A stretch of DNA of 10,170 nucleotides. Source: a virus. Its lineage: Duplodnaviria; Heunggongvirae; Uroviricota; Caudoviricetes. This document shows, piece after piece, positions 92 to 9,610 of this stretch. Under the pieces are notes generated by a model. The model was not told where the DNA came from. It saw only the letters and a program-made list of their open reading frames with translations, and searched no databases. The DNA lies in the IMG/VR virus record IMGVR_UViG_2609460354_000005, positions 1 to 10,170 of that record. One strand, written 5' to 3'. Made by a program: the position numbers and the translations under genes. Numbering within the stretch: position 1 is the first letter of the stretch; every line of letters starts with the position of its first letter.

Positions 92-168
92 TGGCGCGCT
101 GTACTGGATTCGAATCAGTGACCGATTGCTTAGAAGGCAATTGCTCTGTCCGGCTGAGCTAACAACGC
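92..168 (-). tRNA. tRNA-Arg (anticodon UCU), phage-borne, argN-like
   Basis: Reverse complement folds as a 77-nt cloverleaf ending in CCA: 7-bp acceptor stem (one G-U), D-stem GCUC/GAGC, anticodon stem AUUGC/GCAAU with loop CUUCUAA (U33, UCU, A37), T-loop UUCGAAU. The T-stem pair next to the loop is A-C rather than the usual G-C. Position downstream of Q and tR' matches the ileZ-argN arrangement of Stx-type lambdoid phages (from memory). Confidence 0.75.
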
Positions 169-268: not shown

Positions 269-344
269 TGGTGGCCCTTGCTGGATTTGAACCAGCGACC
301 TGGCGATTATGAGTCGCTCGCTCTCACCACTGAGCTAAAGGGCC
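269..344 (-). tRNA. tRNA with anticodon CAU, ileX/ileZ-like (tRNA-Ile2, lysidine-type, or Met)
   Basis: Reverse complement is a 76-nt cloverleaf GGCCCUU...AAGGGCCACCA with anticodon loop CUCAUAA and T-loop UUCAAAU. It closely resembles my recollection of E. coli ileX; Ile versus Met identity cannot be decided from sequence alone. Confidence 0.8.
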
Positions 345-3555: not shown

Positions 3556-3711
3556 TTACTCCTCAGGTTCGTAAGCTGTGAAGACAGCGACCTCCGTCTG
3601 GCCGGTTCGGATTCGTACCTCGCAGAGGTCTTTCCTCGTTACCAGTGCCGTCACTATGACGGTTAAACAGATGACGATCAGGGCGATTAACATCGCCTTT
3701 TGCTGCTTCAT
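3556..3711 (-). CDS. hokD: Hok-family type I toxin (HokD/RelF-like, 51 aa)
   Basis: Internal ATG of the 70-aa track ORF gives MKQQKAMLIALIVICLTVIVTALVTRKDLCEVRIRTGQTEVAVFTAYEPEE: single transmembrane helix plus conserved Hok C-terminus. AAGGAGAAG Shine-Dalgarno lies 7-8 nt upstream. Confidence 0.85.
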   Translation of the reverse strand: MKQQKAMLIALIVICLTVIVTALVTRKDLCEVRIRTGQTEVAVFTAYEPEE

Positions 3712-3768
3712 AGCCTGCTTCTCCTTGCCTTTCGGCACGTAAGAGGCTAACCTACATGTGTCTAGCAT
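3556..3768 (-). CDS. mok-like overlapping reading frame (N-terminally extended frame sharing the hok stop)
   Basis: In-frame ATG 19 codons upstream of hok, same stop; mirrors the mokC/hokC arrangement in K-12 as I recall it. Confidence 0.5.
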   Translation of the reverse strand: MLDTCRLASYVPKGKEKQAMKQQKAMLIALIVICLTVIVTALVTRKDLCEVRIRTGQTEVAVFTAYEPEE

Positions 3769-3835
3769 GAAATTGGCCTCAGATTAATGTTAAGCGTCTC
3801 GCAGGACGCGTAATGTTAACTGGGGCTTTTCTCTA
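3758..3835 (+). ncRNA. Putative Sok-like antisense RNA with promoter (approximate)
   Basis: Inferred from hok/sok architecture: antisense to the mok start region. Plus-strand TTGCCT (3725-3730), 17-bp spacer, TAACCT (3748-3753) could drive it. Ends not defined; no clear terminator found. Confidence 0.3.
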
Positions 3836-4176
3836 TCTGCCGTTGGTGTTCATGCCCGAGGCAGATAGCCTCAAGCACCCGCAGCCATTCTACTTAACTA
3901 CCGTTACCTCGCCAATGTGAAATCAGTCAGAAAGGCGATCCATAAGAACAATAGCAAGACAATAAATCGCCATTACAGCCGTAATAGCCAGCGCACATTT
4001 GAGAACCAGCACCACAACCTCCTGTATTGGACGTACACCAGTCCTGATGAATATGAGGCTGTCTCGTCAGTGATTCAATACAACTATTGGGTATAGTTTC
4101 TCTGATTTTTTCTGTGGAAATGGGGCTCAACCACTAGTCATTTAATACGCAAAGTCCGATACAAGCTAACCTTCTA

Positions 4177-4200
4177 GTCCGCTTTGAGCGAAAAGCGGAC
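4177..4200. repeat. Palindromic hairpin GTCCGCTTT-gagcga-AAAGCGGAC (downstream flank of the HAD gene)
   Basis: Perfect 9-bp inverted repeat; the stem is the same as in the element at 5643-5666. No U-tract on either strand. Confidence 0.6.
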
Positions 4201-4260
4201 GTTGGAAGTTTAAAACTCGCGAACTACTCAGCGTCCATTGATGCGTATTGTGTAACGTGA

Positions 4261-4899
4261 TTAACCACAGATGATATTGAAACGTTCTCCGGAAATCTTG
4301 ACCATAATGTCAGACAGTTTGCTGACGGCATGGGCTTCAGATGATCCCAGAGCGTCAGGCTGAACAGCTATTACCGAAGCTCCACTTGCCAGCCCTGCTT
4401 TTATACCCGCAGATGCATCCTCAAATACCACGCATTCACCAGGCTCAAGGCCCAAAGCCAAAGCTGCTTTGATGTAACCCTCGGGACTTGGTTTTCCCGT
4501 CATTACATCTTCTGCACACACCATTACTATGGGTAAGGGGAGATTAGCCGCTTTCATCCTGTTTTCGGCAAGCATTCTGCCTGCAGAAGTGACAAGTGCC
4601 CAGCTATCCGGTGGCAGTTTTGATAAGAGTGCAGCGGCCCCTTTTACTTCAGTAACGCCTTCTGTCATGTTGATTTCAACCTCTTCGAGTGAGGCCGCGA
4701 TTTTATTGGTTTTCTCACCTGCACCAATAAAATGCGTCAGTGTATCAATCGTTTGCCGCCCGTGTGCGTAAGCAATCACAGCCTGAGTATCAAGACCGTA
4801 TTCTGCACAAAAATCTCTCCAGACGCTTTCCACTACGGCTGTTGAATCAACCAGCGTACCGTCCATATCGAATAAAAAACCCTTAGCGTTGAATATCAT
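4261..4899 (-). CDS. HAD-superfamily hydrolase (subfamily IA, beta-phosphoglucomutase / sugar-phosphatase-like)
   Basis: Motif I FDMDGTLVDS (DxDGT), motif II LVTSAG, conserved Lys in GKPSPEG, motif IV FEDASAGIKAG. Start placed at the second ATG (4899), which has AAGGA at optimal spacing; the track ORF begins 2 codons earlier at 4905. Confidence 0.8.
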   Translation of the reverse strand: MIFNAKGFLFDMDGTLVDSTAVVESVWRDFCAEYGLDTQAVIAYAHGRQTIDTLTHFIGAGEKTNKIAASLEEVEINMTEGVTEVKGAAALLSKLPPDSWALVTSAGRMLAENRMKAANLPLPIVMVCAEDVMTGKPSPEGYIKAALALGLEPGECVVFEDASAGIKAGLASGASVIAVQPDALGSSEAHAVSKLSDIMVKISGERFNIICG

Positions 4900-4928
4900 T
4901 GCCATTCCTTAATGGTTGCAGAAGAAAG

Positions 4929-5567
4929 TTAATCAAACCATGTTTTTTCATCACCTTTCGCTACTCTCAGGCTGACAGCAATCTGCTCAGGCACAATTCT
5001 TGAAAGCGACAATTCAGGCAGGTCGTTGACATCAAAAAAATCAGCATCGAGTGACTCATGGCTGATTGACAGGCTGCCACCTACTTCTTCACAGAGAAAA
5101 ATCAGCTTGTAAACATGCCAGGGTAAAGGCGGATGGCCGTGAAGATTACGATCCCAAACTCCCAATAGTTTAGTCACTCTGACTTTTAATCCGGTTTCTT
5201 CTTCGACTTCTCGACGCACAGCTTCAGAAGGTGTATCTCCAACATCTGCCCATCCGCCAGGAAGACTCCATAATCCATCTGCAGCCTCTTTCACCATCAG
5301 AATACGATTATTACGCAGGATAAACGCACGCACATCTGTTTTGGGCGTCGCGTAACCCGTTTCCGATACATGAAACAAATCATTGCGGCTAATATCAAAC
5401 TGCGAACTCAGCAGTCCAGCGGCAATTTCACGCAAGGCTTCATAGCGTTCCTTGTCAAAGACGTCTTTTGAATAGGTCAGGCCTGACTGCGCGAGGGCCT
5501 TTAGTCTCTGGGCAACAAAAATAAGCTTTTCTTGGGTCAACACTTCAGACATGTTTTTCATCTTCAT
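4929..5567 (-). CDS. Nudix hydrolase with N-terminal extension (Nudix_N-type, ADP-ribose pyrophosphatase-like)
   Basis: Near-canonical Nudix box GWADVGDTPSEAVRREVEEETGL preceded by an approximately 70-aa N-terminal domain. About 25-30 nt upstream of the HAD gene on the same strand. Start codon uncertain (ATGs at 5567, 5561, 5552; no strong Shine-Dalgarno). Confidence 0.8.
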   Translation of the reverse strand: MKMKNMSEVLTQEKLIFVAQRLKALAQSGLTYSKDVFDKERYEALREIAAGLLSSQFDISRNDLFHVSETGYATPKTDVRAFILRNNRILMVKEAADGLWSLPGGWADVGDTPSEAVRREVEEETGLKVRVTKLLGVWDRNLHGHPPLPWHVYKLIFLCEEVGGSLSISHESLDADFFDVNDLPELSLSRIVPEQIAVSLRVAKGDEKTWFD

Positions 5568-5642
5568 TTATGTATTCAGAGTTCCTGTTAAGGATACTGC
5601 TCAATTCAATGAAGAATAACAAATGCATCTGGCACCTGCTAT

Positions 5643-5666
5643 GTCCGCTTCTGGCACAAAGCGGAC
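5643..5666. repeat. Palindromic hairpin GTCCGCTT-ctggcaca-AAGCGGAC (upstream flank of the Nudix gene)
   Basis: Perfect 8-bp inverted repeat with the same stem as 4177-4200. Confidence 0.6.
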
Positions 5667-5763: not shown

Positions 5764-6165
5764 TTATCCCTGATAAAATGCCAGTATGCGCTGCATAACT
5801 TCACTCATCCGGCACTCGCGACAGATTATGTTTAGGCGACTGTCGTAGCGACGTATTTCTCCATCAGGTAACGACCAGATAAGGTCCGGATCAACCACAG
5901 CTGTTTTCTTCACCTTTGCCCTCGAGAGTTTTTTGCGGGCGTTTTGCCAGTCCTTACGCGCCTGTTCAGACGGGAATAACCCGTAGCCGGAGTTGTATAC
6001 ATCGCCACTGGCTACCAGCTCTCTGGCAAGAACGCTCATCAGATATCTAGTCGCACCTGTTTTAGCTTCCAGTTGCCGTAACGTCTCACGACCGCTCTGG
6101 CGCACGAGTTCCACCACCTGCCCTTTAATTTTTTCCCGCTCTTCTTGTGTAAAAACTTTTGCCAC
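5764..6165 (-). CDS. Hypothetical protein (133 aa) downstream of the replication initiator gene
   Basis: GTG start preceded by a strong AAGGGGGA Shine-Dalgarno, about 40 nt after the initiator stop. No family recognised; not lambda P or DnaC-like by size or sequence. Confidence 0.5.
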   Translation of the reverse strand: MAKVFTQEEREKIKGQVVELVRQSGRETLRQLEAKTGATRYLMSVLARELVASGDVYNSGYGLFPSEQARKDWQNARKKLSRAKVKKTAVVDPDLIWSLPDGEIRRYDSRLNIICRECRMSEVMQRILAFYQG

Positions 6166-6205: not shown

Positions 6206-7171
6206 TTATCCTCTGAAACCAGGCGGAATTTCTGTATCCGGTTCAGAAATATGATTAACACAACGCTGTACAGGTGAACGTCCCAGGCGGATGACCAGTT
6301 CGTCCCATTTTTCGCGGAGCTTTGACGGGCTCATGATGTTTTTTACCCAGAATGGATCCCGCTGTACCCGACCAAACATTTCACAAATTTGTCTGTGGCT
6401 TCTGCCATCCAGCATCCGCATTGTGCGCACATCATTGGCCCAGACAGTCCAGTTAGGCTCTTTTGGTCGCATGATCTCGCCATCATCACTGGCGGCCTGT
6501 TCGTAGAGACCCACGATCCGCCCCCATATCCACTGCGCACACGCCAGATCCTCCTGGCTACCCCACTGGCGTTTTTTCGCACTAAACACAACTGCGCCAG
6601 GGTGCCGGATTAAAAAATCCTGTTCAGCCGTCTGCGGGTCCGGTTGCGAAGCTTCCGGACGAAAAGTGTTTTTATTCTCTGTAGTAATCTCTGTTGTATT
6701 CTCTGTAGGATCATCGGGCCATTTTGACCCGATGACATTGGGTCGTTTTGAACCAATGGAGCGTTTCATTTTGACCTCTTCCATCGTGTCATTTTGACCT
6801 GATGGAGCGGCGCATTTTGAACCGATGGATTCGCTCAATTTGCCATCATCTAAAAGCTCGCTCCCATAGTTAATCGTGTAGAAATTGGTCATATCGCGCT
6901 TTGATTTATTGAGCTTTTCACAACGCAAAAGCCCCAGCGTTTTCAGACTTGCAAACGCGCGCTTTAACGTTGACTCTGACCAGAATGGGAACTGTTCCAG
7001 CCATTGTTCCGTTGTGTTGTAAATCCAGCGAACACCATCACATTCCATGCCGGAATTGGTATCTCTCAACCAGTAATGCAACTGCTGCAACACAATGGCT
7101 TCATTTAAGCCAATCTTCATCGCAAGCTGTGTGTTTATAACCAGTGGGCGTTCAGCAAAAAGAAGGCTCAT
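6206..7171 (-). CDS. Phage replication initiation protein (lambda O-like replisome organiser) with internal origin repeats
   Basis: N-terminal helix-rich domain, a middle linker encoded by iterons, and a C-terminal domain. Start placed at the first ATG (7171); the track ORF begins at a TTG at 7225. Identity rests on the lambda-O-style architecture. Confidence 0.6.
   Translation of the reverse strand: MSLLFAERPLVINTQLAMKIGLNEAIVLQQLHYWLRDTNSGMECDGVRWIYNTTEQWLEQFPFWSESTLKRAFASLKTLGLLRCEKLNKSKRDMTNFYTINYGSELLDDGKLSESIGSKCAAPSGQNDTMEEVKMKRSIGSKRPNVIGSKWPDDPTENTTEITTENKNTFRPEASQPDPQTAEQDFLIRHPGAVVFSAKKRQWGSQEDLACAQWIWGRIVGLYEQAASDDGEIMRPKEPNWTVWANDVRTMRMLDGRSHRQICEMFGRVQRDPFWVKNIMSPSKLREKWDELVIRLGRSPVQRCVNHISEPDTEIPPGFRG
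6661..6828. repeat. Putative phage origin of replication: five approximately 23-bp-spaced iterons, three 12-bp repeats and an AT-rich tract
   Basis: Iterons of consensus ATTTTGA(A/C)C(C/T)GATGG at 6719-6736, 6744-6759, 6766-6780, 6789-6805 and 6812-6828. TCTCTGT(A/T)G repeats at 6674-6708 within an AT-rich stretch 6661-6710. All inside the initiator coding sequence, as with lambda ori in gene O. Confidence 0.65.
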
Positions 7172-7673
7172 AATTCCATCCAGCTTTTTGTTGGTATTGC
7201 TGTCGATACGCAAGTTTGAAAGCAATTGCTTTTTCTATAAGTTCGTCAGTTTCACGATCCACTACGGCAGGATCAGCAAAAAGCAGTCCGGACTCCACCA
7301 CATCGCCATATTCTTTGTTTAACCCGGCGATCATGTACGTGATGCTTTTTCCGTCACTAATTTCACGATACAACCTGAAATCATTAATCCGGATAGCCTC
7401 CATAATTGCAGGCACTAGCGCCGTGAACTTTTCACGCTTATCCCTAGTGTCGATAGCCTTCCAGCGTTCGAATATCTTCACTCGATTAACGCCAAGCGCT
7501 CGCTGATCAACCGCGCCACCTTCATCTGTGACACGCTGAACATCGATGTTCGGGCGCTCTTTCAAAGCCCAGAATGCTTCAGTGATTAATATCGTCGCCT
7601 GCTCCTGTGTCATTCCTGGTCGACATATCCAGGCATCCAGAGCCTCACGAGCCTGTTCAGGAGTGATTTTCAT
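7152..7673 (-). CDS. Hypothetical early protein (173 aa), possibly a YdaT-like / CII-analog regulator
   Basis: ATG ORF overlapping the cro-like stop and the initiator start. Sits between cro and the replication gene, where Rac carries ydaT. Family assignment is tentative. Confidence 0.4.
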   Translation of the reverse strand: MKITPEQAREALDAWICRPGMTQEQATILITEAFWALKERPNIDVQRVTDEGGAVDQRALGVNRVKIFERWKAIDTRDKREKFTALVPAIMEAIRINDFRLYREISDGKSITYMIAGLNKEYGDVVESGLLFADPAVVDRETDELIEKAIAFKLAYRQQYQQKAGWNYEPSFC

Positions 7674-7884
7674 TGTTCAACCGCCCCGCCCGCTTCGTCT
7701 TACGATATTCGTCATAAACTTTGGGATCATACTGAAGCTCCCCGCCAGATGCCTCCTGTAGACGCATCGCGCGACCTTCAGGAACTAGCTCTTGCCATTG
7801 AGAAACAGCAGATGGGTCAACGCCAGCAGCTTTCGCTACTTTGGCTTTCGTACCGTAAAAATTAATTACGTCTGATTTAAACAT
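7657..7884 (-). CDS. dicC: Cro-like repressor (DicC-type, 75 aa)
   Basis: Internal ATG at 7884 with GGAGGT Shine-Dalgarno (the track ORF starts at an upstream TTG). HTH-like segment VINFYGTKAKVAKAAGVDPSAVSQW. Divergent from the dicA-like gene. Confidence 0.6.
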   Translation of the reverse strand: MFKSDVINFYGTKAKVAKAAGVDPSAVSQWQELVPEGRAMRLQEASGGELQYDPKVYDEYRKTKRAGRLNNENHS

Positions 7885-7961
7885 CGCACCTCCAATATTG
7901 AGTTTTCTCAATGCTAATCACTCAAGGAATCTCAAGTCAAGGGTTATTAAGATATCTAAAT
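7885..7961. promoter_or_regulatory. Divergent promoter/operator region between the cro-like and dicA-like genes
   Basis: 77-bp intergenic region with perfect palindrome TTGAGttttCTCAA (7898-7911) and further CTCAAG half-site repeats at 7921-7926 and 7931-7936. Confidence 0.55.
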
Positions 7962-8369
7962 ATGAACGAGAAAACTTTAGGTCAACGCATTAGAGAAAGA
8001 CGTAAGCAGGTAGGCTTAAGTCAAAACGGTTTAAGCAAAGCTGCTGGCGTATCTGGCTCATCAATTTCATTATGGGAAAGTGACCATACAGCCCCGCGCG
8101 GGCAAAATTTGCATCGCCTCGCCGAGGTATTGCAATGTTCACCAACCTGGATACTGTTTGGCGACGAGGACAAAACACCAGCTCCCCCTGTTTCACTCGA
8201 TAGTGCCTTAGACTTATCGGAAGATGAGTTAGAGATGCTGCGTTTGTATCGCGCACTTCCTAAATCAGAGCAACAAGCACAACTCAGCGAACTCCGCGCC
8301 CGCGTTGAGAATTTTAATCGCCTGTTCACCGAGCTATTAGAGGCTCGCAAACGCAACAAGCATCAATAA
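7962..8369 (+). CDS. dicA: DicA-like HTH (XRE-family) repressor, 135 aa
   Basis: From the internal ATG at 7962 the product is 135 aa, the length of K-12 DicA. Segment LHRLAEVLQCSPTWILFGDEDK and C-terminal LSELRARVENFNRLFTELLEARKR match my recollection of DicA. Confidence 0.8.
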   Translation: MNEKTLGQRIRERRKQVGLSQNGLSKAAGVSGSSISLWESDHTAPRGQNLHRLAEVLQCSPTWILFGDEDKTPAPPVSLDSALDLSEDELEMLRLYRALPKSEQQAQLSELRARVENFNRLFTELLEARKRNKHQ

Positions 8370-8561
8370 TCATCCCTTCACAAAATTTTAAAGCCTTACA
8401 TTTCAATGTATTGGCTTTATCTTGCGCCAATACTTGAGTTTTCTCATCAAAAAACCTTGACGAAAAATAATGAGAAAACTAAATTACCTCCATCAAGACA
8501 CCGCACGGTGTTCTCAGCAAACAGTTCCGCTACCCCGGCGTTAAGGGGAAATGAGGTCAGC

Positions 8562-8717
8562 ATGGATACTATCGATCTTGGCAACAGCGAATCTCTGGTA
8601 TGTGGCGTGTTCCCCAACCAGGACGGTACGTTCACCGCAATGACGTATACCAAAAGCAAAACGTTTAAAACCGAATCTGGAGCGCGTCGCTGGCTGGAAA
8701 GAAACTCAGGTGAGTGA
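8562..8717 (+). CDS. ydfA: YdfA-like small protein (DUF1391, 51 aa)
   Basis: Internal ATG with GAGG Shine-Dalgarno; product MDTIDLGNSESLVCGVFPNQDGTFTAMTYTKSKTFKTESGARRWLERNSGE. Position after dicA as in Qin. Confidence 0.7.
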   Translation: MDTIDLGNSESLVCGVFPNQDGTFTAMTYTKSKTFKTESGARRWLERNSGE

Positions 8718-8718
8718 T

Positions 8719-9231
8719 ATGGATTTCGACACAATCATGGAAAAGGCTTACGAAGAATACTTCGAAGGCCTTGCCGAAGGCGAAGAAGCTCTCAGCTTCA
8801 GTGAGTTTAAACAGGCACTCAGAATAAGAATGTGCTCTCACAATGACGCGGAGCACAAATATGAGAAGCAAAATCAGACCGCAGAAAATTTTGTTCTGGA
8901 ACCCGGAGAAACGCTTTTCAAAATTCCCGTTACGTGCCCCATTTGCGGTTTTACATCAGAAGAACTTGACGACTCCTGTAATAATCAGGAAACAACCAAG
9001 TATGTCGAAGATGATACCGAGTGCGCACGAAGAACGATTATATCCACGAGTCCAAACTCCAGGACCAATAAATCTCACTTTGAGAGGGTGATTAATCCAC
9101 TCCCCCAAACCAATAAAAAAGATGCCGGAGGACAAAAAACCAATGGAACAACGGGATATCTGTCAAAAAAAGACGTTCCATTAAAGACAAACAACGCAGC
9201 GCCAACAACTGTAAGCGCTTTATACCAGTAA
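8719..9231 (+). CDS. Hypothetical protein (about 170 aa) at the ydfB/ydfC position
   Basis: ATG at 8719 preceded by AGGTGAG; acidic N-terminal half with a CPICGF motif, low-complexity Asn/Thr-rich C-terminus. Occupies the slot of the two short K-12 genes ydfB and ydfC. The 3' extent is uncertain. Confidence 0.5.
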   Translation: MDFDTIMEKAYEEYFEGLAEGEEALSFSEFKQALRIRMCSHNDAEHKYEKQNQTAENFVLEPGETLFKIPVTCPICGFTSEELDDSCNNQETTKYVEDDTECARRTIISTSPNSRTNKSHFERVINPLPQTNKKDAGGQKTNGTTGYLSKKDVPLKTNNAAPTTVSALYQ

Positions 9232-9552: not shown

Positions 9553-9610
9553 TTTTTGGTGACGTTTGGCGGTATCAGTTTTACTCCGTGACTGCTCTGC
9601 CGCCGTTTTT
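9553..9610 (+). ncRNA. dicF: DicF small regulatory RNA (ftsZ-targeting)
   Basis: TTTTTGGTGACGTTTGGCGGTATCAGTTTTACTCCGTGACTGCTCTGCCGCCG followed by TTTTT; near-identical to my recollection of K-12 dicF, including the GGCGG/CCGCC terminator stem. Lies between the ydfC-like ORF and dicB. Confidence 0.85.

What the first reader, a model, noticed from the sequence alone, without database searches (positions are those of the whole stretch)
4261..5567. Nudix hydrolase + HAD phosphatase cassette in the prophage accessory slot
Two co-oriented, closely spaced genes (about 25-30 nt apart) with apparently intact catalytic motifs sit between the replication module and the hok locus. In K-12 Qin, as I recall it, this position holds relBE and other accessory genes, and it is a known variable slot in lambdoid phages. 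Neither enzyme has a role in phage replication or morphogenesis. A pyrophosphohydrolase acting with a phosphatase could break a nucleotide-derived molecule down in two steps (for example ADP-ribose or NAD-type compounds to a free sugar or nucleoside). That would fit either counter-defence against nucleotide-signalling immunity or manipulation of host nucleotide pools, but both ideas are speculative. I do not recognise this pair as a described phage system.
Basis: partly seen in the sequence, partly recalled or inferred. Interest (0 to 1): 0.7.

Follow-up and report, generated by a model that had tools for sequence, protein, structure and literature searches.

The report
Mobile Nudix–HAD hydrolase cassette in prophages
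Two intact small-molecule hydrolase genes (a Nudix pyrophosphatase and a HAD phosphatase) form a rare 1.5-kb cassette with a short DNA hairpin at each end that has recently hopped between the accessory/defence hotspots of unrelated E. coli prophages, but what it does for phage or host is unknown.

Summary
Two co-oriented minus-strand genes encode a Nudix hydrolase (ORF 4929-5567) and a HAD-IA phosphatase (ORF 4261-4905). They lie between the O/Ren-like replication genes and hok/sok of a DicA/DicC (Qin-type) lambdoid prophage. The Nudix belongs to the Nudix_N "CDP-Chase/UDP-Xase" clade, and all clade motifs are present. The HAD is nearest to the sugar/polyol-phosphate phosphatases YfbT/HxpA and Gpp1. 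The pair is one 1,491-bp unit (4176-5666) ending exactly at two 24-nt palindromic hairpins. At 99% identity or more, this unit occurs in lambdoid ren-hok slots, in both P2 defence hotspots, at a lambdoid tail-fibre end and in an integrase island. It is rare: 21 of 5,426 E. coli genomes. Diverged copies (HAD 83-89%), with the same hairpins, sit in ordinary chromosomal neighbourhoods of other Enterobacterales, and both genes are under purifying selection. The same hairpins bound known defence cargos (PD-T7-1, 3HP, P2 fun(Z)) and also plainly non-defence genes. Most likely this is a captured two-step NDP-X degrading operon carried as passenger cargo. An antiviral role is possible but unproven. 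The counter-defence idea has no specific support. I found no published description.

The parts
5643..5666 (.). R-type boundary hairpin GTCCGCTTCTGGCACAAAGCGGAC (8-bp stem, loop containing TGGCAC); the upstream end of the cassette
   Evidence: Homology to P2_4C9, L005 and L109 ends at 5666, and homology to L006 ends at 5662. Other cargos share the flank up to 5637-5643. DNA fold dG is -7.5 kcal/mol, z = -3.9. Chance expectation in the window is 0.00.
5553..5642 (-). Non-coding leader between the R hairpin and the probable Nudix start; no consensus sigma-70 promoter found
   Evidence: The leader is homologous to the leaders of the diverged units L231 and L233 at about the level of synonymous sites.
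4929..5567 (-). Nudix hydrolase of the Nudix_N / CDP-Chase-UDP-Xase clade. The ORF is 212 aa; the probable true start is Met6 at 5552, giving 207 aa.
   Evidence: Pfam. PDB hits: 3Q1P 7e-50 (about 45% identity), 3O8S 4e-42, 4HFQ 2e-37. All clade motifs from PMC3655063 are present (plus direct reading). dN/dS is 0.10 against L017.
4900..4928 (-). Short intergenic spacer with an AAGGA ribosome-binding site for HAD; no terminator, so the two genes are probably co-transcribed
4261..4905 (-). HAD-IA phosphatase. The ORF is 214 aa; the probable true start is Met3 at 4899, giving 212 aa.
   Evidence: Pfam HAD_2 2.2e-22. Nearest NCBIfam is PRK11587 sugar phosphatase (YfbT/HxpA) at 188 bits, below the cutoff of 282. 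Best PDB match is yeast Gpp1, 2QLT, 1.9e-22. dN/dS is 0.11-0.18.
4201..4260 (-). Non-coding trailer between the HAD stop and the L hairpin
   Evidence: Homologous in L231, L233, L232 and L017.
4177..4200 (.). L-type boundary hairpin GTCCGCTTTGAGCGAAAAGCGGAC (9-bp stem, loop GAGCGA); the downstream end of the cassette
   Evidence: Homology to P2_4C9 starts at 4176, L006 at 4177, L109 at 4178 and L005 at 4185. dG is -8.6 kcal/mol, z = -4.1.
5764..6165 (-). Ren-like DUF977 gene; upstream flank of the slot (context, not part of the cassette)
3556..3880 (-). hok toxin gene (3556-3768) and sok antisense RNA region (3706-3880); downstream flank of the slot (context)

Best explanation
Window 4176-5666 is a discrete mobile cargo cassette, not a phage-evolved system.

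It is a two-gene operon that existed as a unit in chromosomes of environmental Enterobacterales. The neighbours of the diverged copies point to Pantoea/Rouxiella-type genomes. It has recently been shuffled, by recombination at its two terminal 24-nt hairpins, into several E. coli prophage accessory slots.

Biochemically it most likely runs a two-step breakdown. First, the Nudix enzyme (CDP-Chase/UDP-Xase clade) cleaves the pyrophosphate bond of a nucleoside-diphosphate-X compound. The characterised relatives use CDP-choline, UDP-MurNAc(-Ala) and UDP-glucose. The products are NMP plus X-phosphate. Second, the HAD-IA phosphatase, which resembles sugar/polyol-phosphate phosphatases, removes the phosphate from X-phosphate, or possibly from the NMP. 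This makes the degradation irreversible.

In the prophage it is most likely passenger 'house-cleaning'/metabolic cargo that changes a nucleotide-activated metabolite pool of the lysogen or infected cell. It is probably not a dedicated immune or counter-immune device.

Shown: gene integrity, family and clade membership, unit mobility, hairpin-defined ends, purifying selection, rarity.
Inferred: enzymatic coupling, substrate class, expression by read-through from the upstream phage operon, and the biological role.
For: Families and motifs. The ligand and catalytic residues of CDP-Chase (Y22, R31, W98, E163) are conserved.

One unit at 99% identity or more appears in five mobile-element contexts:
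- Qin-type lambdoid backbones of 83-99.9% identity;
- the P2 G-FI slot;
- the P2 A-Q slot;
- a lambdoid tail-fibre end;
- an integrase island.
All breakpoints fall within 9 nt of the hairpin edges.

Four diverged units (HAD 83-89%, Nudix 87-93% nt identity) have the same order, the same 26-28-nt spacer and the same R/L hairpins. Their neighbours are ordinary chromosomal genes such as SDR, epimerase, biotin carboxylase, UbiD, LysR, GGDEF and AraC. dN/dS is 0.10-0.18.

The Nudix alone is a stand-alone chromosomal gene in Cedecea, Pseudescherichia and others.

Other hairpin-bounded cargos include detox or metabolic genes: a glyoxalase, NmrA+HxlR, LysR+GNAT and HTH-cupin+GNAT.

Neither protein is a member of a PADLOC defence family. 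The HAD has no hit, and the Nudix gives only 36.8 bits to the candidate PDC-S07.
Against: The slots it occupies are recognised defence hotspots, and about 5 of 8 alternative cargos in the ren-hok slot match defence-database models (PMC9122126, PMC9519451). A neutral passenger would not obviously spread at 99% identity or more across so many prophage backbones.

No substrate is known. The characterised clade members have low catalytic efficiencies, and their physiological substrates are disputed.

Coupling of the two enzymes rests only on conserved adjacency within one fairly shallow clade. Nudix homologs at 69-84% identity and a HAD homolog at 68% identity occur without the partner.

No promoter was detected, so expression is unverified.
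Confidence: 0.45

Rival explanations
1. Anti-phage or superinfection-exclusion module that works by depleting a metabolite. The cassette would be expressed in the lysogen and constitutively drain a nucleotide-activated sugar or alcohol, for example UDP-glucose. The host can spare this compound, but incoming phages need it, either to glucosylate hmC DNA or because it builds the LPS or glycan receptor they adsorb to.
For: The cassette sits in three documented defence-rich slots: P2 GpA-GpQ, P2 fun(Z) (PMC9519451) and the lambdoid ren-hok slot. The ren-hok slot otherwise holds PD-T7-1, 3HP, DUF262 pairs, PDC-S39 and a SIR2+deaminase+Ham1 set. The cassette has spread recently across diverse prophages. 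Clade relatives hydrolyse UDP-glucose and UDP-MurNAc. HAD-containing systems from P4/P2 hotspots do defend (the HAD-like hydrolase + TM system, and a DprA+PRTase system whose PRTase has a HAD domain). E. coli has no chromosomal Nudix_N-type enzyme, so the activity would be new to the host; this last point is from my own knowledge.
Against: There is no sensor, toxin or effector architecture. Neither protein is a member of any defence-database family. The diverged units are not in defence islands. The hairpin cassettes also carry clearly non-defence genes. No own promoter was detected for expression in the lysogen. Some copies are decaying: one has an internal deletion in HAD and one has an IS3 in place of the Nudix gene. 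No nucleotide-sugar-depletion defence has been described.
Confidence: 0.27
2. Counter-defence. The cassette would be expressed early in the lytic cycle from the pR operon and destroy a pyrophosphate-containing immune signal or toxin, such as ADP-ribose-derived Thoeris signals or NAD-derived products.
For: In every phage context seen, the cassette is co-oriented with the upstream phage operon, which would allow read-through expression in the lytic cycle. Phage Nudix enzymes have been proposed to degrade ADPr-derived signals (PMC9503650). CDP-Chase can hydrolyse ADP-ribose suboptimally.
Against: The clade differs from the phage NudE and NadM Nudix clades; NadM-type models score about 27 bits against cutoffs of 350-450. 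The S. suis homolog showed no notable activity on ADP-ribose or cADP-ribose. Anti-defence genes are very rare in P2 hotspots (PMC13586616). Identical units live in non-phage chromosomal contexts. The pair is present in only 2 distinct phages out of 50,697 phage records.
Confidence: 0.1
3. The two enzymes are functionally independent. They are merely neighbouring house-cleaning genes that happen to lie between the same two recombinogenic hairpins, and there is no shared pathway.
For: Close homologs of each gene occur alone: Nudix at 69-84% identity and HAD at 68%. In two units a third, unrelated gene (GGACT) shares the cassette. Both families are notoriously promiscuous.
Against: Five independent diverged instances keep the same order and the same 26-29-nt spacer, and both genes stay under purifying selection. 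The product of a Nudix reaction is by definition a phosphomonoester, which is the substrate class of a HAD phosphatase.
Confidence: 0.15

Closest known systems
Bacillus cereus CDP-Chase (PDB 3Q1P/3Q4I/6NCH/6NCI) and Streptococcus pneumoniae UDP-X diphosphatase SP_1669 (4HFQ)
   Same: The architecture is the same: a Nudix_N three-helix domain plus a Nudix domain, 200-210 aa. All subfamily motifs are present (HLH GLTYSKDVFDKERY, YATP hinge, LPELS, subfamily Nudix box). The ligand and catalytic residues Y22, R31, W98 and E163 are conserved. Identity to CDP-Chase is about 45%.
   Different: The protein is found in Gram-negative Enterobacterales and on prophages, whereas the family was described as Gram-positive only. 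It has no link to cell-wall or sporulation genes. It is paired with a HAD phosphatase. Its substrate, asymmetric dimer formation and RNA exonuclease activity are untested.
E. coli YfbT/HxpA sugar (hexitol) phosphatase and yeast Gpp1 glycerol-3-phosphatase (HAD-IA, C1 cap)
   Same: The HAD-IA fold and all four catalytic motifs are present. These are the best curated and solved matches (NF008610 1.2e-55; 2QLT 1.9e-22).
   Different: The score is below the equivalog cutoff (188 against 282 bits), so the protein is not an ortholog. The nearest non-cassette relatives, at 50-55% identity, are actinobacterial 'sugar phosphatases'. Specificity is unknown.
Accessory cargo of the P2 hotspots (old/tin between A and Q; fun(Z) between G and FI) and the 'moron' concept
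   Same: The cassette occupies exactly these two P2 slots (L109, L001) and an analogous lambdoid slot. It is non-essential, rare and swapped as a block (PMC9122126, PMC9519451, PMC13586616).
   Different: No antiviral phenotype is known for it. It is made of metabolic hydrolases that have chromosomal, non-mobile-element copies. No promoter or terminator of its own was detected.
HAD-containing antiviral systems from P4/P2 hotspots (the 'HAD-like hydrolase + TM protein' anti-T7 system; the DprA + HAD-PRTase system) (Rousset 2022)
   Same: A HAD-superfamily domain is carried in a phage or satellite hotspot.
   Different: The partners differ (a membrane protein or a PRTase, not a Nudix). No sequence relationship was tested or evident, and PADLOC gives no hit for this HAD.
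REP/BIME elements and integron attC-bounded cassettes (as analogies for the hairpins)
   Same: The hairpins are short palindromic units of two alternating types lying at gene ends. L-then-R pairs sit about 15-18 nt apart at junctions, and the cargo between units is swappable.
   Different: The hairpins are only 24 nt long and their sequence is unlike the E. coli REP or attC consensus (from my own knowledge). No associated RAYT transposase or integron integrase was identified. They occur inside phage genomes.

Membership tests
Nudix hydrolase superfamily | Nudix box G-x5-E-x7-R-E-U-x-E-E-x-G-U on the Nudix fold | tested here: met
   GWADVGDTPSEAVRREVEEETGL: G1, R15-E16-V17-x-E19-E20-x-G22-L23 are all present, and position 7 is D instead of E. 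Pfam PF00293 7.9e-19, 68 bits against a cutoff of 21.
CDP-Chase/UDP-Xase (Nudix_N) subfamily, as defined in PMC3655063 | 200-210 aa; N-terminal HLH motif G-U-x-x-ar-x2-D-x-x-ar-D-x-[ED]-R-x-ar; YxTP hinge; LPxLS; subfamily form of the Nudix box | tested here: met
   207 aa from Met6. GLTYSKDVFDKERY, YATP and LPELS are present. The Nudix box matches with K replaced by R at one position. Pfam Nudix_N PF12535 7.6e-18. PDB 3Q1P 7e-50 and 4HFQ 2e-37.
CDP-Chase/UDP-Xase (Nudix_N) subfamily | Asymmetric homodimer with two distinct active sites; hydrolysis of CDP-choline or UDP-X; 3'-5' RNA exonuclease activity | not testable with these tools
   This needs biochemistry and structure work on the oligomer. 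Only conservation of Y22, R31, W98 and E163 could be read from the alignment.
CDP-Chase/UDP-Xase (Nudix_N) subfamily | Restricted to Gram-positive bacteria and linked to cell-wall or sporulation genes (as proposed by the authors) | tested here: not met
   There are more than 100 close homologs in Enterobacterales (Cedecea, Leclercia, Pantoea, Kluyvera, Sodalis and others), with unrelated neighbours. This widens the family's range rather than excluding the protein.
HAD superfamily, subfamily IA phosphatase | Motif I DxDG(T/V); motif II S/T; motif III K; motif IV (E/D)D; C1 cap between motifs I and II | tested here: met
   FDMDGT (D13, D15), VTS (T106/S107), GKP (K138) and FEDASAG (E161-D162) are present. 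HAD_2 2.2e-22; TIGR01509 HAD-SF-IA-v3 58.9 bits against a cutoff of 29.4.
YfbT/HxpA sugar phosphatase equivalog (NF008610) | Score at or above the curated cutoff of 282 bits | tested here: not met
   188.3 bits. This is the nearest curated family, but the protein is not an ortholog.
Known or candidate anti-phage defence system (PADLOC-DB v2) | Proteins match the models of a described system | tested here: not met
   The HAD has no hit. The Nudix domain gives only 36.8 bits (6.6e-10) to the single-gene candidate PDC-S07, over the generic Nudix fold.
Phage NAD/ADPr-related Nudix clades (T4 NudE; NadM/NatV Nudix of NARP2) | Specific sequence relationship to those clades | tested here: not met
   NadM-type bifunctional models score 23-28 bits against cutoffs of 350-450. 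NudE scores 19 bits against 169.
Moron (independent transcription unit inserted between genes that are adjacent in related phages) | Insertion between otherwise adjacent genes | tested here: met
   Related prophages have other cargo between the same flanks. P2 relatives carry fun(Z) at the same place.
Moron | Own promoter and terminator | tested here: inconclusive
   The consensus scan found no sigma-70-like promoter upstream of the Nudix gene and no T-tract terminator after the HAD gene. The scan is crude, and the hairpins lack U-tracts.

The most novel reading that the evidence does not exclude
The Nudix-HAD pair is a sensor-less antiviral or receptor-remodelling module. It would protect the lysogen by constitutively draining a nucleotide-activated sugar or alcohol that competing phages depend on. 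It would be one cargo of a previously undescribed hairpin-defined cassette-exchange system. That system has two heterotypic 24-nt palindromes (R and L), analogous to recombinase-mediated cassette exchange. It would shuttle defence and metabolic genes between P2-like phages, lambdoid phages, islands and chromosomes of Enterobacterales. This would explain how near-identical defence systems move between unrelated mobile elements.
Probability: 0.13. Interest if true: 0.8.

Novelty: new member of a known kind. Interest (0 to 1): 0.45.

Why it matters
Prophage hotspots are now mined systematically for new immune systems. This cassette lies in three such hotspots but is built from ordinary house-cleaning enzymes that also have non-mobile chromosomal copies. 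It is therefore a useful test of whether position in a hotspot predicts an antiviral function.

If it does defend, depletion of a nucleotide-sugar or CDP-alcohol would be a new defence principle.

Independently of function, the exact coincidence of all breakpoints with two conserved hairpin types gives a concrete, testable handle on an open question raised in recent work (PMC13586616): how near-identical cargo moves between unrelated mobile elements. The hairpins are seen around Nudix-HAD, PD-T7-1, 3HP and P2 fun(Z), and around chromosomal copies.

Tried and rejected
1. Housekeeping E. coli genes: rejected. Only 21 of 5,426 complete E. coli genomes carry the cassette, always in mobile-element contexts.
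2. A long-standing phage-specific pair: rejected. Among 50,697 phage records only P2_4C9 (two records) and 10W have it, and all copies are at least 99% identical.
3. Plasmid carriage: none found. Only single-gene distant matches appeared.
4. Member of a known defence family: rejected.
5. The 'ADP-ribose pyrophosphatase' annotation used by COG, JGI and PDB 3O8S: treated as unsupported after reading the substrate screen.
6. A diverged copy in phage 11W as evidence of long association with P2: rejected. That stretch has 386 Ns and is of low quality.
7. Extra conservation of the leader or trailer as evidence for a regulatory element: rejected. Identity there equals third-codon-position identity. 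Rfam found nothing in the cassette.
8. Source species of the cassette: the reference-genome scan found no close HAD relative (best 54%, Leifsonia). The scan is based on exact peptide words and may miss 70-90% orthologs. Cluster look-ups gave no organism names for the L017 neighbours except the GGACT gene (Pantoea, Rouxiella).
9. Hairpins as classical intrinsic terminators: rejected, because no T/U tract follows them.
10. Hairpins in the old/tin region of reference P2: none found with my pattern.
11. Papers I could not read: Nilsson et al. 2004 (Mol Biol Evol 21:1), Odegrip 2006 and Duong-Ly 2011 are not held. Prior description of the hairpins in P2 therefore cannot be excluded.
12. Structure prediction and fold search were not run. 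About 45% identity to solved structures already fixes the folds, and the tools cannot predict substrates.
Full report
OBSERVATION

The window is a DicA/DicC (Qin-type) lambdoid prophage segment. Read on the minus strand, the gene order is:
- DicC 7657-7911, with DicA 7911-8369 divergent on the plus strand;
- a cII/YdaT-like gene, 7152-7673;
- an O-like replication initiator, 6206-7225;
- a Ren-like DUF977 gene, 5764-6165;
- the two genes of the finding;
- hok 3556-3768 with sok RNA 3706-3880;
- rem-like small genes;
- a DUF968/HNH gene, 1687-2742;
- RusA, 1306-1686;
- antiterminator Q, 488-1309;
- two tRNA genes.

The Nudix ORF is 4929-5567 (212 aa) and the HAD ORF is 4261-4905 (214 aa). Both are on the minus strand and lie 23 nt apart. 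All homologs begin at MSEVL... for the Nudix and M(T/I)F(N/S)(V/A)KGF... for the HAD. The true starts are therefore probably Met6 (5552, 207 aa) and Met3 (4899, 212 aa). The second is preceded by AAGGA at good spacing, and the resulting gap is 29 nt. The catalytic motifs are intact in both proteins.

WHAT THE PROTEINS ARE

The first protein has a Nudix_N domain (PF12535, 7.6e-18) followed by a NUDIX domain (PF00293, 7.9e-19). Its best solved relatives are:
- B. cereus CDP-Chase (3Q1P/6NCH, E 7e-50, about 45% identity);
- the S. suis protein 3O8S (4e-42);
- S. pneumoniae UDP-X diphosphatase 4HFQ (2e-37).

PMC3655063 defines this subfamily by length (200-210 aa) and four motifs. All four are present here: GLTYSKDVFDKERY, YATP, LPELS and the subfamily form of the Nudix box, with one K-to-R change. 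The residues that contact ribose or phosphate in the CDP-Chase co-crystal, and the catalytic loop Glu, are also conserved.

The known activities of the clade are hydrolysis of CDP-choline and of UDP-MurNAc, UDP-MurNAc-Ala and UDP-glucose, plus a 3'-5' RNA exonuclease activity. Catalytic efficiencies are low. ADP-ribose is a suboptimal substrate of CDP-Chase. The S. suis homolog was deposited as an 'ADP-ribose pyrophosphatase'. In a 74-compound screen that included ADP-ribose and cADP-ribose, it showed only weak activity on dinucleoside polyphosphates. The authors concluded that the real substrate had not been found. The ADP-ribose label on this clade is therefore not evidence.

The second protein is a HAD-IA phosphatase (HAD_2, 2.2e-22). 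Its nearest curated family is the YfbT/HxpA sugar phosphatase, but the score is below the equivalog cutoff (188 against 282 bits). Its best solved match is yeast glycerol-3-phosphatase Gpp1.

IT IS A DISCRETE MOBILE CASSETTE

The DNA shared with the P2-like phage P2_4C9 (99.3% identity) is window 4176-5666. It begins and ends exactly at two 24-nt palindromes:
- L-type, 4177-4200, GTCCGCTTTGAGCGAAAAGCGGAC;
- R-type, 5643-5666, GTCCGCTTCTGGCACAAAGCGGAC.

These hairpins occur twice in the window, against 0.00 expected by chance. They fold stably as hairpins.

The same unit, at 99% identity or more, occurs in these contexts:
- the ren-hok slot of Qin-type prophages whose backbones are only 83-99.9% identical to the window (18 E. 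coli genomes and 10 IMG/VR contigs);
- between tail-fibre assembly gene G and sheath gene FI of P2_4C9 and phage 10W, which is the fun(Z) slot;
- between nickase A and portal Q of another P2-like phage, which is the old/tin slot (L109);
- at the tail-fibre/Lom end of another lambdoid prophage (L005);
- next to an integrase in an island, where the HAD gene carries an internal deletion (L006).

One further copy has lost the Nudix gene to an IS3 insertion (L007). In every case the breakpoints lie within 9 nt of a hairpin edge.

The cassette is rare. It is in 21 of 5,426 complete E. coli genomes, in 2 distinct phages among 50,697 phage records, and in no plasmid.

ORIGIN

Nudix homologs at 60-84% identity are stand-alone chromosomal genes in Cedecea, Pseudescherichia, Leclercia, Pantoea, Kluyvera, Sodalis and others. 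None of the three examined has a HAD neighbour.

Five diverged copies of the pair do exist (HAD 71-89% identity). All keep the Nudix-then-HAD order and a 26-28-nt spacer. Four of them (L231, L233, L232, L017) lie among ordinary chromosomal genes: SDR, epimerase, biotin carboxylase, UbiD, LysR, GGDEF, AraC and MFS. These four are again bounded by an R-type hairpin upstream and an L-type hairpin downstream, and L-then-R pairs about 15 nt apart sit at the junctions. In two of them a GGACT-family gene shares the cassette. Members of that gene's protein cluster come from Pantoea and Rouxiella.

The leader and trailer are as diverged as synonymous sites. The whole R-to-L unit is therefore what is inherited and moved. 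Both genes are under purifying selection, with dN/dS 0.10-0.18.

THE SLOTS AND THE HAIRPINS

In the lambdoid ren-hok slot, the same flanks and hairpins enclose other cargos:
- PD-T7-1 (4e-157);
- the three-gene 3HP system;
- a DUF262 (NsnA/PD-T4-2-like) protein with an AlbA_2-like partner;
- a PDC-S39 candidate, with an IS21 insertion;
- a TetR + adenosine deaminase + Ham1 + SIR2 set;
- two proteins of unknown function;
- an IS110 + HTH-cupin + GNAT set.

Next to P2 FI, a DUF262 + HEPN pair is bounded in the same way. In reference phage P2, fun(Z) itself lies between an R-type hairpin just after G (15335-15358) and a degenerate L-type hairpin just before the conserved FI-side flank.

Loop sequences fall into a few families, dominated by the R and L types. 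Some R..L cargos are plainly not defence genes: a glyoxalase, NmrA+HxlR and LysR+GNAT.

Published work recognises the P2 A-Q and fun loci as defence hotspots, and notes that P2 defences are shared with non-P2 prophages by an unknown mechanism (PMC9122126, PMC9519451, PMC13586616). I found no mention of these hairpins in the held papers. Nilsson et al. 2004 could not be read.

HOW IT MOST LIKELY WORKS

A Nudix reaction on NDP-X yields NMP plus X-phosphate, and both products are phosphomonoesters. A HAD-IA phosphatase of the sugar/polyol-phosphate type, encoded 29 nt downstream and conserved in that position, is the obvious second step. Together the two enzymes would irreversibly destroy a nucleotide-activated small molecule. 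The clade assignment points to pyrimidine-linked sugars or alcohols rather than ADP-ribose or NAD, but this is an inference.

No promoter or terminator was detected within the cassette. In all the phage contexts seen, the genes are co-oriented with the upstream phage operon. Read-through expression is therefore plausible but unverified.

ROLE

I weigh three readings.

1. Passenger metabolic or house-cleaning cargo (about 0.45). In favour: the unit has chromosomal, non-defence neighbourhoods in its diverged copies, it lacks any sensor or effector architecture, it has no defence-family membership, and other detox-type cargos lie between the same hairpins.
2. Defence by metabolite depletion or receptor remodelling (about 0.27). 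In favour: the unit occupies three defence-rich slots, and it has spread recently across prophages.
3. Only the orientation and general analogy support it. Clade membership, the substrate screens and the rarity of anti-defence genes in these slots argue against it.

A fourth possibility is that the two enzymes are not functionally coupled at all (about 0.15).

COMPARISON AND NOVELTY

The enzymes are new members of known families. The Nudix extends the CDP-Chase/UDP-Xase clade to Gram-negative bacteria and to phages. The locus is a new, uncharacterised cargo of known prophage hotspots. I therefore classify the finding as a new member of a known kind, of moderate interest.

The more unusual result, which lies outside the original finding, is the hairpin-defined cassette architecture. 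It is shared by P2-like phages, lambdoid phages, islands and chromosomes. It deserves a dedicated survey and a recombination assay.

Noticed in passing
window 4177-4200 and 5643-5666; also L001 5978-6001/7444-7467, L002 174-197/3507-3530, L004 1560-1583/3501-3524, L232 2976-2999/4802-4825/4841-4864, L233 4194-4217/5657-5680, L236 (phage P2) 15335-15358: Two types of 24-nt palindromic hairpin (R loop TGGCAC, L loop GAGCGA) mark the exact ends of swappable cargo in several places: lambdoid ren-hok slots, the P2 G-FI slot (including fun(Z) of reference P2), the P2 A-Q slot, islands and chromosomal sites. L-then-R pairs about 15-18 nt apart occur at cassette junctions. R is always on the upstream side relative to transcription of the flanking phage operon. 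The mechanism is unknown; possibilities are short-homology recombination, a site-specific recombinase, or REP/BIME-like behaviour. I did not find it described in the held literature.
   Followed up: partly
L139 1793-5305 (IMG/VR contig, next to a Ren-like gene): The same slot and hairpins enclose a four-gene cargo: a TetR-like regulator, an adenosine deaminase (PF00962; PADLOC CARF_ADA-like, 1e-35), a Ham1/ITPase (PF01725) and a SIR2_2 protein (ThsA-like, 9e-32). This looks like an uncharacterised nucleotide-targeting defence candidate.
   Followed up: partly
L109 7062-9283: In the P2-like phage that carries the cassette in the A-Q hotspot, three further ORFs (377, 142 and 215 aa) follow it. 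They match PHROGs 12777, 11490 and 9664. None has a PADLOC hit, and the two tested against Pfam (377 and 215 aa) have no hit. This may be a second, unknown cargo.
   Followed up: partly
L017 5982-6317 and L232 3083-3409: A GGACT/AIG2-like (gamma-glutamylcyclotransferase family) gene sits inside the same hairpin-bounded unit, upstream of the Nudix-HAD pair, in two diverged chromosomal copies. It is absent from the E. coli cassette. Any functional link is unknown.
   Followed up: no
L112, L120, L140, L148, L151, L167, L171, L226 (IMG/VR): A different hairpin pair has the same stems but loops TCGGTCAG and CCGGCCAG. It recurs with a constant 1,513-bp spacing in at least 8 viral contigs that lack the lambdoid and P2 markers. 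This is another common cassette, and I did not examine its cargo.
   Followed up: no
window 95-168 and 272-344 (minus strand): Two tRNA genes lie just downstream of antiterminator Q (Rfam 62 and 72 bits), as in many lambdoid and Stx-type phages. I did not determine the anticodons.
   Followed up: no
window 9554-9605 (+) and 7657-8369: A DicF sRNA (72.5 bits) and the DicC/DicA immunity pair confirm the Qin-type backbone. The replication genes that are deleted in K-12 Qin (O-like, Ren-like) are intact here, so this prophage is less decayed than K-12 Qin.
   Followed up: partly
window 8406-9231 (+): Two ORFs downstream of dicA (103 and 173 aa) match PHROGs 751 and 35040, both of unknown function. 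The region is AT-skewed (AT skew up to 0.31).
   Followed up: no
L006 4029-4466 and L007 4863-6076: Some copies of the cassette are decaying. Two E. coli genomes share a 234-bp internal deletion in the HAD gene, and in one genome an IS3-family element replaces the Nudix gene. The cassette is therefore not under uniformly strong selection.
   Followed up: partly
L230 2440-3870 (phage 11W, NC_070902): The G-FI slot of phage 11W gives patchy matches to the cassette at about 91% identity, but the stretch contains 386 Ns. It is a sequence-quality artefact rather than a diverged copy.
   Followed up: yes
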